From assembly GCA_026003895.1 (NCBI GenBank), contig BPIC01000003.1:49022-113021 (forward strand): a DNA stretch of 64,000 bases, read 5' to 3'. This document shows positions 54,340 through 60,698 of the stretch, in pieces; the stretch's first letter is position 1; every line of letters starts with the position of its first letter. This DNA is from Dehalococcoidia bacterium (GTDB lineage Bacteria; Chloroflexota; Dehalococcoidia; SpSt-223). The position numbers and the translations under genes are program-made. The notes under the pieces were generated by a model. That model did no database searches. It was not told the origin of the DNA and saw only the letters and a list, made by a program, of their open reading frames with translations.

Positions 54340-55662
54340 ATGTCCTCCATCTTCTCAGCCGAGATTCTGATCATCGTGTTGTTGATCCTGCTCAATGGGA
54401 TCTTCGCGATGTCAGAGATCGCGGTCGTCTCTGCCCGGCGTGTCCGGCTGCAACAGCGGGCCGAGCGCGGCGACCGATCGGCACAGGCCGCGCTTGCGTT
54501 GGCGGAAGCGCCCGGCCCCTTCCTCTCAACGGTTCAGATCGGCATCACGCTCATCGGGATTCTCGCCGGCGCCTACGGCGGCGCGTCCATCGCCGAGCAG
54601 ATTGGCGCAGCGATTGCCGCCATCGAGCCGCTTGCGCCCTACGCCGAGCTCATCGGCGTTGGGGTGGTGGTGCTGGCCATCACCTACTTGTCGCTCGTCC
54701 TTGGCGAACTCGTTCCGAAGCGGTTGGCGCTCGGGAACCCAGAGGGCATCGCCCGCGCCGTTGCCCGGCCGATGACGGTCCTTTCACGCCTCGCCAGTCC
54801 CGGTGTCCGTCTGCTTGACGCTTCCCAGAATATCGTCCTAACTCTGTTGCGCATTCGTCCTACCCAAGAGCCCCCCGTGACCGAGGACGAAATTCGCATC
54901 CTGATTCGGCAGGGAGCGGCAGCGGGCGTCTTCGTCCAAGAGGAACGGGAGATGGTAGAAGCCGTCTTCCGGCTCGCCGACGCCCGCGCCGAGCAGTTGA
55001 TGGTGCCGCGCAGTCAGATCGTCTGGTTGCGTGCCGGCGACCCCCCCCGAACGGCACTGGCAAACCATCGTCCGCAGCGGTCACACGTGGTACCCTCGTT
55101 CGCGGGGAGAGCGTCGACGATGTGCTCGGCATCGTCTCGTTGAAACAGATCTTCGCCCGGGTCGCCGCTGGCACCCCGCTCGCTTCCATCGACATTACCG
55201 CGCTCGTCACGCCGCCGCTCTACATCCCGAAGACCTCTTCGGGCCTTCGAGATCCTCGATCGGTTTCGCGAACAGAAGACCCATCTCGCCGTTGTGCTGG
55301 ATGAGTTCGGCGGCGTCGACGGGCTGATCACGCTGAACGACATCGCCGAAGGCATCTTCGGGTCGGTCGCAACCGTCGAGCCGGAGCCGGCGATCATCCG
55401 GCGGGACGACGGGACCTATCTCGTCGACGGGCTCGTGGAACTCGACCGGTTTTTCGAGACGTTTCACGTTGACGAACCGCTCAGCGACGCCGGCGAGGAG
55501 ATCGAGACCGTCGCCGGGCTGGCGCTCGCGGCATTCGGCCGGCTCCCACGGGTTGGTGAACGGGCGACTTGGAACGGACTGGAATTTGAAATCGTCCAAA
55601 TGGATGGACACCGCATCGCTCGCCTCGCAATACGGCCCGCGGCGAAGGACGCTACACCATGA
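54340..55662 (+). pseudogene. Hemolysin-family (TlyC/CorC: CNNM + CBS + CorC) protein, three +1 frameshifts as sequenced
   Basis: NGIFAMSEIAVVS, TVQIGIT, GELVPK and DEFGGVDGLITLNDI motifs. Homologous CBS sequence passes through frames 1, 2, 3 and back to 1 between 55041 and about 55240. Confidence 0.85.
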
Positions 55663-57527
55663 AGAAGCTCACCGTACTCCTGCTTGCCCTCTTGGCTGGG
55701 CTCGCGCTCCTTCCGCTCGCTGCACACGCCCAAACACGCTCGGTAACCATGCCGCGGCGGGATGCCGAGATCACGATCTTGCCGAATGGCGATGTGCAGT
55801 TCGTCGAAACGTGGGTCGTCCAATTCATAGGCGGACCGTTTCAGCAGGCGTTTCGCAACATCCCCACCGCGCAGACAACGGGAATCACGGACATCGCCAT
55901 CAGTGAGGGGACGACCATCTACCGCCGAACGACGGGCTCCGGCACGCCAAACACCTACAGCGTGACCGAAACGGGCGGCGAGGTGCGAATCCAATGGTAT
56001 TTCCCCGCAACGACCAACGCGACACGCACATGGACGCTGCGCTACACCGTGCACGGCTCGCTCTACATCTACCCAGCAGGAGATCAGTTCTACTGGAAGT
56101 TCATCGAAAGCGACCGCCAATACACGATCGAGGCATCGCGGGTGCGGCTGACGCTGCCTGCCGAAACCAGCCCGGACCAAATTCGGGCGACGACCTACAC
56201 CAACGTCCGCGAGACCGGCGGCGCCCAAGTGATCGACGGGCGGACGGTCGAATTTAGCGGTGGGCCCTTTCCCTCGGGCGTCGAGTGGGAGCTGCGCGCT
56301 CAGTTCCCCTCTGACCTCGTGGATGCCAGCCCTGCGCCGTGGCAAGTCGATCGTGACCGCGAGCCAATCTACACGCTGATTGGACTCTTCTTCGCGTTGG
56401 TGGTCGGGATTGCCGGTCCGGTTGGCGTGGTGCTGCTCTGGTTCCTGCGCGGCCGTGACGAGCGGCCAGCGATGGTGGCCGAGTTCCTCGCCACGCCGCC
56501 GGACGATTTGCGGCCGGGCGTGGCCGGCGTTCTGCTCGATGAGCGCGCCGATCTGCAAGATATCATCGCCACGCTGGTTGACCTCGCGCGACGCGGGTAC
56601 ATCCGAATCATCGAGCGGGACGACAACGGCTCGAACCGATTCCGGTTCGTCCGCGAGCAAGGTGATCAAGGGGCGCTGCTCCCCCACGAGCGGCTGCTGC
56701 TGGATGCCGTCTTCGGCAATGACACGGAAAAGGACCTTCGCGAGCTACGCAACAAGTTTTACTTGCAGATTCCTTCGCTCCAAAAGGCGCTGACGCGCGC
56801 GGCGGTGGAGGCCGGTTTCTTCCCCCGCAGTCCCGCTTCGACACGGGCGATCTACGCCGCGCTCGGCGTGCTTGTTTTGCTCGGCGGGATTGGCGCGTTT
56901 GTGCTTGGGGCGCTGTTGCCCTCAGCGCTGCTGTCGCGAATCATCGGGTTCCCAAGCATCTCGGTGATGCTCACCGGGCTCCTGCTGCTGATCTTCAGCC
57001 CGGCGATGCCGCGCCGAACGGTGAAGGGCTCGCAGGCGGCTGCCAAGTGGCGCGCCTTTCGACGCTACCTCGAACACGTCGAGCGCTACACCAACGTCGC
57101 CGAGGCGAAGGACCAGTTCGAGCGCTACCTGCCATATGCGATCGCCTTCGGCGTCGAGCGACGTTGGGTCGACCGGTTCGCTCGAGCGGGCGCCCCGGCG
57201 CCAGTCTGGTACGTGCCGTATCCGGTGTACCAATCGGGCGGCTGGGAACGCGGCCGTCAGACAAGCGGTGACTGGGCCGGCTCGGCCGACAGCGCCGGCG
57301 CTGTCGGCCGCGGCAGCAGCGGCGGCCTGCCGTCGCTCGACAGCGCGGCAGCGCGCTCGCTGGGTGGGCTCAACGCGATGAGCGCCGGTTTGTTCTCGAT
57401 GCTTAACTCCACGTCCTCGGTTTTCACCAGTGCGCCGCGGTCCTCGGGTAGCAGCGGAGGAGGCTGGTCCGGTGGTGGCGGCGGCGGCGGCGGTGGTGGC
57501 GGCGGCGGTTCGAGCGGCTTCGGCTAG
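55659..57527 (+). CDS. DUF2207 membrane protein
   Basis: Signal peptide, ITILPNGDVQFVET, QFYWKFI, LVDLARRGYI, W.AFRRYL, YLPYAIAFG and a Gly/Ser-rich C-terminus. ATGA overlap. Confidence 0.9.
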   Translation: MKKLTVLLLALLAGLALLPLAAHAQTRSVTMPRRDAEITILPNGDVQFVETWVVQFIGGPFQQAFRNIPTAQTTGITDIAISEGTTIYRRTTGSGTPNTYSVTETGGEVRIQWYFPATTNATRTWTLRYTVHGSLYIYPAGDQFYWKFIESDRQYTIEASRVRLTLPAETSPDQIRATTYTNVRETGGAQVIDGRTVEFSGGPFPSGVEWELRAQFPSDLVDASPAPWQVDRDREPIYTLIGLFFALVVGIAGPVGVVLLWFLRGRDERPAMVAEFLATPPDDLRPGVAGVLLDERADLQDIIATLVDLARRGYIRIIERDDNGSNRFRFVREQGDQGALLPHERLLLDAVFGNDTEKDLRELRNKFYLQIPSLQKALTRAAVEAGFFPRSPASTRAIYAALGVLVLLGGIGAFVLGALLPSALLSRIIGFPSISVMLTGLLLLIFSPAMPRRTVKGSQAAAKWRAFRRYLEHVERYTNVAEAKDQFERYLPYAIAFGVERRWVDRFARAGAPAPVWYVPYPVYQSGGWERGRQTSGDWAGSADSAGAVGRGSSGGLPSLDSAAARSLGGLNAMSAGLFSMLNSTSSVFTSAPRSSGSSGGGWSGGGGGGGGGGGGGSSGFG

Positions 57528-57700: not shown

Positions 57701-58216
57701 ATGGGACGAGTGCTCGGCATCATCTTGATCGCGGTCGGCGTCGGGATCTGCGCCCTCGTGTCGCTGTTCCTCGGCTCCGGTCTCATCACGAACCAACTCA
57801 CTCTCGCCGGCGCAGTGCTGGGCGTCGCCCTGTTCGGTGGCGTACCGCTCATTCTGTTGGGAGGGGTCGGCGGTTTCATCTTCATGCGGGGCCGCGCCGA
57901 AGAAAAAGAACTGGCCGAGATCCGCAAAAAGGAGCGGTTGCTGGGCATGATCTCGGCGCAGGGCCAGGTGTCGCTCGGCTCGGCAATGATCGAAATGAAG
58001 ATGACGCGCGACGAGGTGCAAAACGCGATCTACGATCTCGTCAATCAGGGCCTCTTCGCCGGCTACATCGACTGGACCACGCAAACGTTCTACTCGAAGG
58101 ACGCTGCTCAAGTCGGCAGCACCAAGTGCCCAAACTGCGGAGGCGTTCGGGAGGTCGCCGGCAAAGGGATCGTGCGCTGCCCCTATTGCGGGGTGACGCT
58201 CTTCATCCCCGCGTGA
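57701..58216 (+). CDS. Membrane-anchored PCI/winged-helix-like protein with C-terminal Zn ribbon
   Basis: Two TM helices, an HTH-like QGQVSL...EMKM..DEV...IYDLV..GLF.GYIDW segment, and CPNC...CPYC. Confidence 0.78.
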   Translation: MGRVLGIILIAVGVGICALVSLFLGSGLITNQLTLAGAVLGVALFGGVPLILLGGVGGFIFMRGRAEEKELAEIRKKERLLGMISAQGQVSLGSAMIEMKMTRDEVQNAIYDLVNQGLFAGYIDWTTQTFYSKDAAQVGSTKCPNCGGVREVAGKGIVRCPYCGVTLFIPA

Positions 58217-58292
58217 GCACCTCGCGCGATTCGGCGCACGAGGCGGCCGAACGAGGCGACGCTTCGAGAGGGCAGAACCTGAGGAGGGCGGC

Positions 58293-58931
58293 ATGAACCG
58301 AGATCCGTTGCCAATCACCGTCTGGAGCGACTTCGTCTGACCCTGGTGCTTTATGGCGGTGTCCGGTCTGGACGCCTTGAGCCGAACCGAGCCGATCGTC
58401 GTCACGTGGAAGGCCTTCGAGCTGCGCCCGCCGGAAGCGCCGCCCCTGCCCCCGCAGGTGGTCGAACAGTACCGGCAACGCATCGCCGCGAGCAGCGAGC
58501 GAATGCGCCAGCACGCCCGGGCGGTGTTCGGCCTCGAGATGCGCCAGCCCGAGCGCCCCTCCTCGAGCCGGCTGGCGCATCAGGCCGCCAAATGGGCGGA
58601 GGATCGCGGCGCAGGTGACTGCTACCGCCGGGCGCTCTTTGCCGCCTATTGGCAGGAGGGACGCGACATCGGCGACCCCGCCGTTCTCCAAGCGCTCGCC
58701 GAGGCCTGTGGGTTGGATGCGTCTGCATTGGCGGCAGACCTTGCCGCCGGCCGCTACGTCGAGGAGGTCCGCGCCGACAGCGCCGAAGCGCATGAAGCGG
58801 GGCTTTCTGGCGTCCCCGCCTTCGTCTTCGCCGGCAAATACCTTGTCACCGGAGCCCAGCCGCCCGACACCCTGCGCCGTATCGCCGAGCTCGTTCGCGA
58901 GAAACTCGCCAACGAGTCTGCCTCCTCCTGA
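58293..58931 (+). CDS. DsbA/FrnE-family oxidoreductase, predicted selenoprotein (Sec16, UPWC)
   Basis: ATG 58293 with GAGGAGGG SD. Reads ITVWSDFV-TGA(58338-58340)-PWCF in frame with ORF 58353-58931. AFEL.P, GVPAFVF and GAQP motifs follow. Confidence 0.9.
58355..58376 (+). promoter_or_regulatory. Bacterial SECIS-like hairpin
   Basis: GGC-(GGT bulge)-GTCC-[GGTCT]-GGAC-GCC starting 15 nt after the TGA; the apical loop GGUCU matches E. coli fdhF SECIS. Confidence 0.75.
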
Positions 58932-59298
58932 GGCGACCTTCGCGCGGCGACGCCCTTTGGCGCCGCCCCTGCGTACCACGGAGGGCTGCCGGCGGCTCGT
59001 CTGAACCGCCGGGCGCGATCGACAGCCACGAACGGATGTGATGGTCAGGCTGCGGACGTTGAGCGGTTGCGACAAACCGCGCCGAGGTTCGAACCGGAAC
59101 GTCCCGGACATCAGCCTTGTCGATGTGGTGGCCGATTGGCCGGCCTCTCGGAGCCGATGACGATGACCGTCGGAACACGCGGACTTGCCACACGGTCAAC
59201 GACATTCGATGGTAGCCTCAACGCGCTCACGAGGACGTGCGGCATGCTGGGCCTTCGACCGATGGGCGAGCCCAGTCGCTTGAAACCCGCGCGGTGTG

Positions 59299-59310
59299 AT
59301 ACATTTGTTC
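59299..59310 (+). promoter_or_regulatory. Possible LexA (GAAC-N4-GTTC type) operator
   Basis: ATAC-ATTT-GTTC 20 nt upstream of radA; 2 mismatches in the left arm. Confidence 0.4.
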
Positions 59311-59330
59311 TATTCAGCGGCGAGGCGAGC

Positions 59331-60698
59331 ATGGCCAAGGCGCGCACACGCACCGTCTTTTTCTGTCAACAGTGCGGCGGCGAGCAGTCCCGATGGCTCG
59401 GGCGCTGCCCGGATTGCGGCACGTGGAACAGCCTGGTCGAAGCGCAGGTGGAGCGGAACCCTGCTCCTGCGGCGCTCCCTGCGCTGCCGAAGGCGGAGCC
59501 ACAGTCGCTGCCAACGATTACGGCCGATCGGTTTGAGCGCATCACCGTCGAGTACGACGAGTTCAATCGCGTGCTCGGCGGCGGGATCGTTCCGGGGTCG
59601 CTCGTGCTCATCGGTGGCGAGCCGGGCGTCGGCAAGAGCACGCTGCTTGCGCAAGTCTCGGGGGCGCTCGTTCAAAAAATTGGCAAAGTGCTCTACATCT
59701 CCGGCGAGGAGTCCGTTCAGCAAATCAAGCTGCGTGCCGACCGGCTGGGGATCCGCGAGGCCGACCTGTATCTGCTTGCCGAAACGTCGCTCGACGACGC
59801 CCTCGCCGCCATGGAGAGCTTACAGCCGCGCGCTGTCGTGGTTGACTCAATTCAGACGATGTACCTTGAATCGCTTGAATCGGCAGCGGGCTCGGTGAGT
59901 CAGGTGCGCGAGTGCGCCGTGCGGCTGCAGCGTTGGGCAAAGGCGCGGCACGTGCCGATCTTCCTCGTGGGCCATGTCACCAAGGAGGGCGCGATCGCCG
60001 GGCCTCGCGTGCTCGAGCACATCGTCGACTGCGTGCTCTACCTCGAAGGGGAGCGGTTTCAGAGCTACCGTCTGTTGCGCAGCACCAAGAATCGGTTCGG
60101 CTCGACTCATGAGATCGGCGTCTTTGAAATGCAAGGTGACGGCCTCGTCGAAGTCTTGAACCCCTCGGCCGCGTTCTTGGCCGAGCGCTCCGAGACGGCG
60201 ACCGGATCGGCCGTGACCGTCACGATGGAGGGCACCCGGCCCATCCTCGTCGAGATCCAAGCGCTCACCAGTCCGAGCGCGTACGGGATGGCACGACGCA
60301 CGGCCAACGGCATCGACATGAACCGACTGCACCTTCTGACCGCAGTCCTCACCAAGCGCGTCGGTCTCGACCTCGGTGCGCAAGACATCTTCGTCAACGT
60401 GGTTGGCGGCCTGAAAATCGGTGAGCCGGCGGCGGACCTCGCCATCGCCCTCGCGGTTGCGTCCTCGTTTCGCGATCTGGCGCTCGATCACGAGATGGTC
60501 TATCTCGGTGAGGTTGGGCTCGGCGGAGAGCTTCGCTCCACCGGCCAGATCGAACGTCGGCTGCTCGAAGCGTCCAAGCTCGGGTTCAGCCGGGCGCTCA
60601 TCCCTGCCGCCATCAAGCGCGATCGTATCAATGTCGAGGGAATGCGCCTGATCGCGGCGGCGGACCTTGCCTCGGCGATTGAACTGTTCGCTGACTAA
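59331..60698 (+). CDS. radA: DNA repair protein RadA/Sms
   Basis: CQQCG...CPDC Zn finger, GEPGVGKST Walker A, KNRFG motif and Lon-like C-terminal domain. Confidence 0.97.
   Translation: MAKARTRTVFFCQQCGGEQSRWLGRCPDCGTWNSLVEAQVERNPAPAALPALPKAEPQSLPTITADRFERITVEYDEFNRVLGGGIVPGSLVLIGGEPGVGKSTLLAQVSGALVQKIGKVLYISGEESVQQIKLRADRLGIREADLYLLAETSLDDALAAMESLQPRAVVVDSIQTMYLESLESAAGSVSQVRECAVRLQRWAKARHVPIFLVGHVTKEGAIAGPRVLEHIVDCVLYLEGERFQSYRLLRSTKNRFGSTHEIGVFEMQGDGLVEVLNPSAAFLAERSETATGSAVTVTMEGTRPILVEIQALTSPSAYGMARRTANGIDMNRLHLLTAVLTKRVGLDLGAQDIFVNVVGGLKIGEPAADLAIALAVASSFRDLALDHEMVYLGEVGLGGELRSTGQIERRLLEASKLGFSRALIPAAIKRDRINVEGMRLIAAADLASAIELFAD

What the first reader, a model, noticed from the sequence alone, without database searches (positions are those of the whole stretch)
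58293..58931. Hidden selenoprotein: DsbA/FrnE oxidoreductase with a UxxC active site and fdhF-like SECIS
The ORF track starts at 58353, after the active site. An SD and ATG at 58293 give MNRDPLPITVWSDFV-TGA-PWCF, where the family has SDxxCPWC. A hairpin 15-36 nt downstream (GTCC-GGTCT-GGAC with a U-containing bulge) has the GGUCU loop of E. coli fdhF SECIS, within the usual spacing. The true stop is also TGA, so decoding is context-dependent. There is no signal peptide, implying a cytoplasmic enzyme, and the organism must encode selA, selB, selC and selD. DsbA-like selenoproteins are known from metagenomes but are rarely characterised and routinely mis-annotated.
Basis: partly seen in the sequence, partly recalled or inferred. 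Interest (0 to 1): 0.85.

Follow-up and report, generated by a model that had tools for sequence, protein, structure and literature searches.

The report
Selenocysteine FrnE/DsbA-like oxidoreductase, mis-annotated as truncated
This gene encodes a cytoplasmic DsbA/FrnE-type redox enzyme whose first active-site cysteine is replaced by selenocysteine (an in-frame UGA), so gene callers cut off its active site; the reading is correct, but this selenoprotein family has been known since 2005.

Summary
There is an ATG at 58293 with a GGAGG 5 nt upstream, an in-frame TGA at 58338 and a terminal TGA at 58929. The read-through product, MNRDPLPITVWSDFV-U-PWC..., matches Pfam DSBA from residue 8. Its closest solved structure is D. 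radiodurans FrnE, with U on the first Cys of CPWC.

In 60 genomes of the same class, 22 of 27 homologous loci have TGA at exactly this codon and 5 have Cys. Six more metagenomic or Anaerolineae homologues also have TGA.

A 7-bp hairpin with a GGUCU loop (58358-58376) follows the TGA. It is kept in 8 of 9 closer homologues, with two compensatory pair changes.

The genome has selA, a tRNA-Sec(UCA) and a selD that itself carries Sec. selB is missing from this 80.5%-complete MAG, but so is its whole syntenic neighbourhood, including ligA. All three congeners have selB. Of the genomes with the TGA form, 19 of 20 have selB. Of the genomes with only a Cys form, 0 of 4 do.

Verdict: this is a real selenoprotein gene and a member of the known "DsbA-like form 1 (PF01323/COG2761, UxxC)" family. 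Public records truncate it routinely.

The parts
58283..58287 (+). Shine-Dalgarno GGAGG, 5 nt upstream of the true start
   Evidence: Read directly from the sequence. The annotated start at 58353 has no such motif upstream.
58293..58931 (+). Full coding sequence of the FrnE/DsbA-like selenoprotein (212 residues plus stop)
   Evidence: Translation with TGA=U. Pfam DSBA PF01323, E 5.7e-36, covers residues 8-195 and profile positions 2-187 of 191. D. radiodurans FrnE 5cnw, E 1.2e-34, aligns from residue 2.
58338..58340 (+). UGA selenocysteine codon (residue 16), first position of the U-P-W-C redox motif
   Evidence: TGA is at the same aligned codon in 22 of 27 relatives' loci and Cys in 5. It is invariant in 9 of 9 closer homologues. 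It aligns with the first Cys of FrnE's CPWC.
58347..58349 (+). TGC, resolving cysteine C19 of the UxxC motif
   Evidence: Nearly invariant in the alignments (C19 in at least 90%).
58358..58376 (+). SECIS-type hairpin: stem 58358-58364 paired with 58370-58376, apical loop GGUCU at 58365-58369. A 17-nt spacer separates it from the UGA.
   Evidence: Present in both the MFE and centroid folds. On 9 homologues 90.5% of cells pair, against 25-52% in slid registers. Two pairs change on both sides (G-C to C-G; U-A or U.G to A-U). Only 2 of 500 shuffles reach the covariation score. The hexamer GGUCUG is shared with the E. coli fdhF SECIS.
58353..58355 (+). Internal ATG (Met21) that gene callers wrongly use as the start
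   Evidence: ORF list. Database entries P0002-P0006, P0008 and P0030 all begin here, at 'MAVSGLD' or 'MAESGLD'.
58929..58931 (+). Terminal UGA that works as a stop
   Evidence: Homology to DSBA and FrnE ends before this codon.

Best explanation
Window 58293-58931 (+) is one gene for a 212-residue cytoplasmic thiol/selenol-disulfide oxidoreductase. It belongs to the FrnE branch of the DsbA fold, and selenocysteine replaces the first, nucleophilic active-site cysteine (U16-P-W-C19).

Proposed mechanism:
1. Ribosomes start at ATG 58293, which has a GGAGG 5 nt upstream.
2. At UGA 58338, SelB-GTP-Sec-tRNA(Sec) is recruited by the mRNA hairpin 58358-58376 (7-bp stem, GGUCU loop) and inserts Sec.
3. 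Translation continues to UGA 58929, which has no such hairpin and terminates.
4. The enzyme cycles between a selenolate/thiol state and a selenenylsulfide (U16-C19). It most likely reduces or isomerises disulfides in cytoplasmic proteins, as D. radiodurans FrnE does.
5. Because it lacks FrnE's C-terminal CxxxxC tail, it must be recycled by another route, probably a thioredoxin system.

Shown here: the TGA is conserved, Sec and Cys alternate at that codon, the hairpin shows covariation, and the Sec machinery is present.

Inferred: Sec is actually incorporated, the direction of catalysis, the substrates and the recycling partner.
For: - The region upstream of the TGA belongs to the DSBA domain and aligns with FrnE from residue 2, with U on the first Cys of CPWC.
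- The motif SD(F/Y)(V/I)-X-P(W/F)C is conserved across the TGA in 22 relatives' loci. Five loci have Cys at that codon.
- Cys-type database homologues read 'VWSDFVCPWCF', which is nearly identical around the site.
- TGA is invariant in 9 closer loci, including two Anaerolineae-type genomes.
- The hairpin is conserved with two compensatory pairs. Over the same 38 nt the Sec group folds to a mean of -10.5 kcal/mol and the Cys group to -7.2.
- Sec machinery is present in this genome. selD scores 402 bits with U in 'GAG-U-ACK'. selA scores 557 bits. The tRNA-Sec(UCA) is 98 nt with an 8-bp acceptor stem and a long variable arm.
- selB is in all 3 congeners, in 19 of 20 genomes with the TGA form, and in 0 of 4 genomes with only a Cys form. 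By my own hypergeometric arithmetic, p is about 5e-4.
- The family is published: 'DsbA-like protein, COG2761, UxxC' (PMC1088965) and 'DsbA-like form 1, PF01323, UxxC' (PMC13188914).
Against: - selB is absent from this assembly. The best TIGR00475 hits are EF-Tu, IF-2, LepA and TypA, no SelB-type P-loop was found, and there is no SelB-wing domain.
- No Rfam family matches the hairpin, even at E up to 10.
- RNAalifold found no single consensus structure over 23 class-wide loci, because the hairpin register differs between subgroups.
- Folding-energy z-scores are modest: -0.5 to -2 for this gene's own clade.
Sec incorporation is therefore inferred and not observed.
Confidence: 0.93

Rival explanations
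1. The annotated 192-residue ORF (58353-58931) is the real product: a DsbA-fold protein without a redox centre. On this view the sequence upstream of the TGA is untranslated, or is only a 15-codon leader ORF.
For: This is what the gene callers produced for this genome and its relatives (P0002-P0008). selB was not found in this assembly.
Against: - ATG 58353 has no SD, whereas 58293 does.
- The 15 codons upstream are conserved at the protein level across loci of about 30-40% identity, and they complete strand 1 and the active site of the DSBA domain.
- Cys-type homologues are continuous through this point.
- A truncated protein would lack the first beta-strand and the CxxC motif.
Confidence: 0.03
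2. The TGA is a nonsense mutation or an assembly or sequencing error in a Cys-type frnE, which would make the gene a pseudogene or an artefact.
For: TGA differs from TGC and TGT by one base. Reads could not be inspected.
Against: The same TGA is found in 22 independent relatives' loci in 20 genomes, and in 6 further contigs from different samples. It co-occurs with selB. The downstream hairpin shows compensatory changes.
Confidence: 0.02
3. The UGA is read through by something other than the Sec system, for example lineage-wide UGA reassignment or near-cognate suppression, and inserts Trp, Gly or Cys.
For: None specific. Sec was not observed directly.
Against: - The gene's own terminal codon is UGA, and homology ends there.
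- The position is a catalytic Cys in homologues, which is the signature of Sec and not of Trp or Gly.
- tRNA-Sec, selA and a Sec-containing selD are present.
- The TGA form tracks selB.
Confidence: 0.02

Closest known systems
DsbA-like selenoprotein family, form 1 (PF01323 / COG2761, UxxC). First described from the Sargasso Sea metagenome (PMC1088965), then in Anaeromyxobacter dehalogenans, Desulfovibrio desulfuricans and Desulfotomaculum reducens (PMC1794560). Listed in the 2026 review PMC13188914.
   Same: DSBA-like thioredoxin domain. Sec at the first position of the UxxC redox motif. Widespread Cys homologues. A bacterial SECIS hairpin directly downstream of the UGA with G in the apical loop.
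   Different: Nothing essential differs. This is a further member, from a Dehalococcoidia-class MAG. In the sampled class the Sec form is the majority state: 20 genomes have it and 4 have only a Cys form. I could not compare directly with the published reference sequences (for example NIP15863.1), so identity to them is unknown.
Deinococcus radiodurans FrnE (DR_0659; PDB 5cnw, 5cp1). A cytoplasmic disulfide reductase/isomerase of the DsbA family, FrnE subfamily (cd03024; PMC8945050).
   Same: It is the best solved-structure match (E 1.2e-34, residues 2-195 against 8-212). It has the same CP(W/F)C-type motif at the same place, no signal peptide, and the same helical insertion domain.
   Different: The window's protein has Sec in place of Cys22. 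It lacks the C-terminal CxxxxC tail that regenerates drFrnE, and ends ...REKLANESASS. FrnE of D. maricopensis and of S. roseofulvus lack that tail too (PMC8945050). Overall identity to drFrnE is only moderate.
E. coli fdhF SECIS (formate dehydrogenase H)
   Same: A hairpin immediately 3' of the UGA inside the coding sequence. The apical sequence GGUCUG is shared.
   Different: The loop G's lie at +28/+29 from the U of UGA, against +22/+23 in fdhF. The loop is the pentaloop GGUCU closed by C-G, against GGUC closed by A-U. There is no bulged U. No Rfam SECIS model matched. Other subgroups of this family use hairpins of different sequence and register.

Membership tests
DsbA-like selenoprotein form 1 (PF01323/COG2761, UxxC) | DSBA-like thioredoxin domain | tested here: met
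   PF01323, E 5.7e-36, 124.5 bits against a cut-off of 25.6. Covers residues 8-195 and profile positions 2-187 of 191.
DsbA-like selenoprotein form 1 (PF01323/COG2761, UxxC) | In-frame UGA aligned with the first Cys of the CxxC motif of Cys-containing homologues | tested here: met
   U-P-W-C. 22 of 27 relatives' loci have TGA and 5 have Cys at the same column. FrnE has CPWC. Cys-type proteins P0009, P0010, P0013, P0024 and P0056 read 'SDFVCPWCF'.
DsbA-like selenoprotein form 1 (PF01323/COG2761, UxxC) | Bacterial SECIS: a stem-loop shortly downstream of the UGA with G in the apical loop | tested here: met
   Hairpin 58358-58376 with loop GGUCU. 90.5% of cells pair, with two compensatory pairs, and 2 of 500 shuffles reach the covariation score. 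Caveats: only 9 sequences, no Rfam match, and no class-wide consensus.
DsbA-like selenoprotein form 1 (PF01323/COG2761, UxxC) | Host genome encodes the Sec-decoding machinery (selA, selB, selC, selD) | tested here: inconclusive
   selA, selD(U) and tRNA-Sec were found. selB is not in this 80.5%-complete assembly. However, its whole syntenic block, including proB and ligA, is also missing. selB is present in all 3 congeners and in 19 of 20 genomes with the TGA form.
DsbA-like selenoprotein form 1 (PF01323/COG2761, UxxC) | Selenium actually incorporated at the UGA | not testable with these tools
   This needs 75Se labelling or mass spectrometry.
FrnE subfamily of the DsbA family (cd03024), cytoplasmic | Closest relatives are FrnE proteins, with a CP(W/F)C-type motif near the N-terminus | tested here: met
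   The top PDB hits are drFrnE 5cnw and 5cp1 (E 1.2e-34). The next is SCO1869 (2.2e-19). Classical DsbA scores only 1e-6, and over the C-terminal half alone. The CDD model itself could not be run.
FrnE subfamily of the DsbA family (cd03024), cytoplasmic | No signal peptide or membrane anchor | tested here: met
   Only 7 residues (MNRDPLP) precede the first conserved strand, and the alignment to FrnE starts at residue 2. No dedicated signal-peptide predictor was run.
FrnE subfamily of the DsbA family (cd03024), cytoplasmic | C-terminal CxxxxC regeneration motif (present in many members, not all) | tested here: not met
   The C-terminus is ...VREKLANESASS, with no Cys after C139. According to PMC8945050 this motif is also absent from D. 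maricopensis and S. roseofulvus FrnE, so it is not strictly defining.
Classical periplasmic DsbA (CPHC, Sec signal peptide, DsbB partner) | Signal peptide and CPHC motif | tested here: not met
   No N-terminal hydrophobic segment. The motif is U-P-W-C. Similarity to solved DsbA structures is weak and partial.
E. coli fdhF-type SECIS | GGUC apical loop about 22-25 nt from the U of UGA, with a bulged U in the upper stem | tested here: not met
   GGUCUG is shared, but the loop is 6 nt further downstream and no bulge is supported. The hairpin works like a bacterial SECIS but is not of the fdhF type.

The most novel reading that the evidence does not exclude
In the Dehalococcoidia class the selenocysteine form of cytoplasmic FrnE may be the default state rather than a rarity: 20 genomes carry it and 4 carry only a Cys form. 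At least three unrelated SECIS hairpin sequences and registers (loop start at +21 to +28) serve the same codon. That would imply either a SelB with unusually relaxed spacing and sequence requirements, or repeated re-invention of the SECIS inside one conserved coding segment. A tail-less Sec-FrnE may also use a different recycling partner from the characterised Deinococcus enzyme.
Probability: 0.3. Interest if true: 0.4.

Novelty: new member of a known kind. Interest (0 to 1): 0.25.

Why it matters
The practical value is in annotation. The gene and its close relatives stand in public databases as 'DsbA family protein' entries of 187-196 residues that lack the catalytic motif. Their function and the organism's selenium dependence are therefore invisible.

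The finding adds one confirmed member to the selenoproteome of a Dehalococcoidia lineage already known to be rich in selenoproteins (PMC13326102). It shows that the Sec form dominates this family in the class. No DsbA-like selenoprotein appears to have been characterised biochemically in the papers I read, so the gene is a reasonable candidate for a Sec-versus-Cys comparison in a DsbA fold. It does not open a new kind of biology.

Tried and rejected
- Rfam cmscan at E up to 10 over 57800-59400 gave no SECIS or other credible family.
- RNAalifold on 23 class-wide loci returned no consensus structure, because hairpin registers differ between subgroups. I switched to 9 closer homologues with a named structure.
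- Folding-energy z-scores are weak discriminators. The authentic E. coli fdhF SECIS scores z = +0.32 in the same test, so I gave the modest z-scores little weight either way.
- The synonymous-recoding control drew its codon usage from the same sequences, so it is conservative. It gave z = -1.96 for the window's own sequence.
- A genome-wide UxxC/CxxU scan for other selenoproteins gave 823 hits in this 66% GC genome and is useless as a census (the first attempt timed out).
- The first alignment of relatives' loci was partly garbage, because the genome search does not reorient loci that match on the minus strand. This was fixed.
- selB was sought by TIGR00475, by a P-loop scan, by PF09107 and by tblastn with the congener's SelB. 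All four were negative in this assembly.

Full report
**1. What is in the sequence**

The + strand reads GGAGG (58283-58287), then 5 nt, then ATG (58293). Fifteen sense codons follow, then TGA (58338-58340), CCC TGG TGC, and an open frame down to TGA 58929-58931.

A mechanical ORF list gives only the 192-residue frame that starts at ATG 58353. That ATG has no Shine-Dalgarno motif upstream.

With TGA read as U, the product is MNRDPLPITVWSDFV-U-PWCFMAVSGLD... (212 residues).

**2. The N-terminal extension belongs to the protein**

Pfam DSBA (PF01323) matches residues 8-195 against profile positions 2-187 of 191 (E 5.7e-36). The domain therefore begins upstream of the TGA.

The closest solved structure is Deinococcus radiodurans FrnE (5cnw and 5cp1, E 1.2e-34). 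It aligns from residue 2, with 'WSDFV-U-PWCF' lying on 'WSDIACPWCY'. The UGA therefore sits on the first, nucleophilic Cys of the CP(W/F)C redox motif. Classical periplasmic DsbA matches only weakly, and only over the C-terminal half.

Just seven residues precede the first strand, so there is no room for a signal peptide.

**3. Sec/Cys alternation**

I searched 60 genomes of the same class with stop codons read through. I then aligned the N-terminal parts of the matches with TGA marked. Loci matching on the minus strand had to be reverse-complemented by hand.

- Of 27 relatives' loci, 22 (in 20 genomes) have TGA at exactly the first position of X-P-(W/F)-C.
- Five have Cys there: L017, L025, L029, L030 and L035. 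L035 is a CPYS variant.
- The flanking SD(Y/F)(I/V) and P(W/F)C(Y/F) are conserved on both sides of the TGA down to about 30% identity. That conservation is only expected if the ribosome reads through.

Full-length Cys-type proteins in the large protein database read 'VWSDFVCPWCFLAS' (P0009, P0010, P0013, P0024, P0056). The closest database entries are 187-196 residues long (P0003, P0004, P0006, P0008, P0030) and all begin at 'MAVSGLD' or 'MAESGLD'. They were truncated by the gene callers at the same internal Met.

I fetched DNA for six such entries. All six have the in-frame TGA and an in-frame start upstream. Two of them come from Anaerolineae-labelled genomes at about 50% identity.

A sequencing error or a private nonsense mutation is thereby excluded.

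**4. The SECIS**

In the window the minimum-free-energy and centroid folds both contain a 7-bp stem, 58358-58364 paired with 58370-58376. It closes the loop GGUCU, and 17 nt separate it from the UGA.

On the 9-sequence alignment A5 this helix behaves as follows:
- 90.5% of cells are paired, against 25-52% when the 3' arm is slid by 1-3 columns.
- Two of the seven pairs change on both sides: G-C to C-G at 58358/58376, and U.G or U-A to A-U at 58360/58374.
- Only 2 of 500 shuffles reach the observed covariation score.

The sample is small and the sequences are related, so I count this as good support rather than proof.

That U is paired.

The ninth sequence (L052) has a different hairpin, but its apical loop is GGUC at +21 to +24. 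More distant Sec-type loci have hairpins of other sequence in roughly the same place, with loops starting at about +23 to +28. This is why RNAalifold found no class-wide consensus.

Over the same 38 nt, Sec-type loci fold to a mean of -10.5 kcal/mol and the five Cys-type loci to -7.2.

I checked the fdhF comparison on E. coli K-12 itself. fdhF has UGA CAC GGC CCA UCG GUU GCA GGU CUG CAC C, so the hexamer GGUCUG is shared. The fdhF loop lies 6 nt closer to the UGA. The authentic fdhF element scores z = +0.32 in the shuffle test, so low energy z-scores say nothing against a SECIS.

No Rfam model matched.

**5. Sec machinery**

The assembly that contains the window is a 3.98-Mb, 10-contig, 66% GC MAG rated 80.5% complete. 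It contains:
- selD (402.6 bits, cut-off 125), with an in-frame TGA that reads 'SHGAG-U-ACKLG', the canonical catalytic Sec/Cys position;
- selA (557 bits, cut-off 268);
- a 98-nt tRNA-Sec with anticodon UCA, an 8-bp acceptor stem and a long variable arm.

selB was not found. The best TIGR00475 hits are EF-Tu, IF-2, LepA and TypA. There is no SelB-type P-loop and no SelB winged-helix domain.

I tested whether this absence is real.
- All three genomes of the same genus have selB above the cut-off.
- In congener G003, selB (658 residues, L046:6995-8971) lies between proB, two acyl-CoA dehydrogenases, a serine protease and ligA.
- tblastn of all of these against the window's assembly finds no hit at all for proB or ligA, and only 33-45% paralogues for the others. 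By comparison, the DsbA orthologue is 85% identical between the two genomes.
- The whole block of at least 16 kb, including an essential gene, is therefore simply unassembled.

Across the class, 19 of the 20 genomes with the TGA form have selB. The exception is a 470-contig MAG. None of the 4 genomes whose only aligned homologue has Cys has selB. By my own hypergeometric arithmetic, p is about 5e-4.

**6. What it does**

[quoted passage not shown] It is proposed to be a cytoplasmic disulfide reductase whose C-terminal CxxxxC regenerates the active site. Some FrnE proteins lack that tail (PMC8945050).

The window's protein also lacks it, ending ...REKLANESASS. By inference it is a cytoplasmic disulfide reductase/isomerase that cycles through a U16-C19 selenenylsulfide and is recycled by another partner, probably a thioredoxin system.

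Gene context gives no further clue. In the genus the neighbours are a small membrane/zinc-ribbon protein upstream and radA downstream. In the Anaerolineae-type genomes they are queF and an aldehyde:ferredoxin oxidoreductase.

**7. Comparison with what is known**

- 'DsbA-like protein, COG2761, UxxC' was one of the new selenoprotein families reported from the Sargasso Sea in 2005, with SECIS elements drawn (PMC1088965).
- It was then found in Anaeromyxobacter dehalogenans, Desulfovibrio desulfuricans and Desulfotomaculum reducens (PMC1794560).
- The 2026 review lists 'DsbA-like protein form 1, PF01323, UxxC' (PMC13188914).
- Dehalococcoidia MAGs with 46-49 selenoproteins are recorded in BSepDB (PMC13326102).
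- Earlier notes of this scan report two other Trx-fold selenoproteins in this same genome. I saw one of them, 'VFVTPT-U-PHCP' at C5:324707, in my own scan.

**8. Verdict**

The thing is a further member of a known selenoprotein family whose truncated annotation is routine. Confidence in the selenoprotein reading is about 0.93. Interest is 0.25.

The only mildly new points are these:
- the Sec form predominates in this class;
- several different SECIS hairpins serve the same codon;
- the protein lacks the FrnE C-terminal tail.

Noticed in passing
own genome C3:276238-277164 (-), outside the window: selD is itself a selenoprotein. An in-frame TGA gives 'SHGAG-U-ACKLG' at the canonical catalytic position.
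   Followed up: partly
own genome C5:324707 (+), about 9 kb downstream of selA (C5:314097-315419): A second Trx-fold selenoprotein candidate, 'DVQVFVTPT-U-PHCPRTASLALKLA'. It matches an earlier scan note about a PDO-like U-P-H-C protein.
   Followed up: no
own genome versus G003:C1:36000-52000 (L046): The assembly lacks a block of at least 16 kb that in the congener carries proB, selB, two acyl-CoA dehydrogenases, a protease and the essential ligA. This is a concrete example of what the missing roughly 20% of this MAG contains.
   Followed up: yes
L052:338-392 (metagenomic homologue P0007, 60% identity): It has the same TGA but a different SECIS: a 6-bp stem CCUCGC/GCGGGG with a GGUC tetraloop at +21 to +24, which is almost the E. 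coli fdhF spacing. SECIS turnover has therefore happened within one protein family.
   Followed up: partly
L035 (G037:C38:4047-4586, -): This paralogue has C-P-Y-S in place of CxxC, so it has a single-Cys active site. The same genome also has selB and two further TGA-containing partial matches that I did not inspect.
   Followed up: no
G021 (C2:30831-31925 and C1:941-2032): One genome shows two selB matches above the cut-off, at 304.7 and 304.3 bits. This could be a duplication or a contig-end assembly duplicate.
   Followed up: no
window 55659-57527 (+): A 622-residue ORF with a signal-peptide-like N-terminus, internal hydrophobic segments, and a C-terminal tail that ends in a run of 13 glycines (...GGGWSGGGGGGGGGGGGGSSGFG). 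Its family was not checked.
   Followed up: no
window 57701-58216 (+) and 59067-60698 (+): The flanking genes are a 171-residue protein with two N-terminal hydrophobic helices and a C-terminal CxxC...CxxC zinc-ribbon, and a RadA/Sms-like ATPase whose real start is probably the internal 'MAKARTRTVFFCQQCG'. The same neighbours flank the orthologue in L047 and L048.
   Followed up: no
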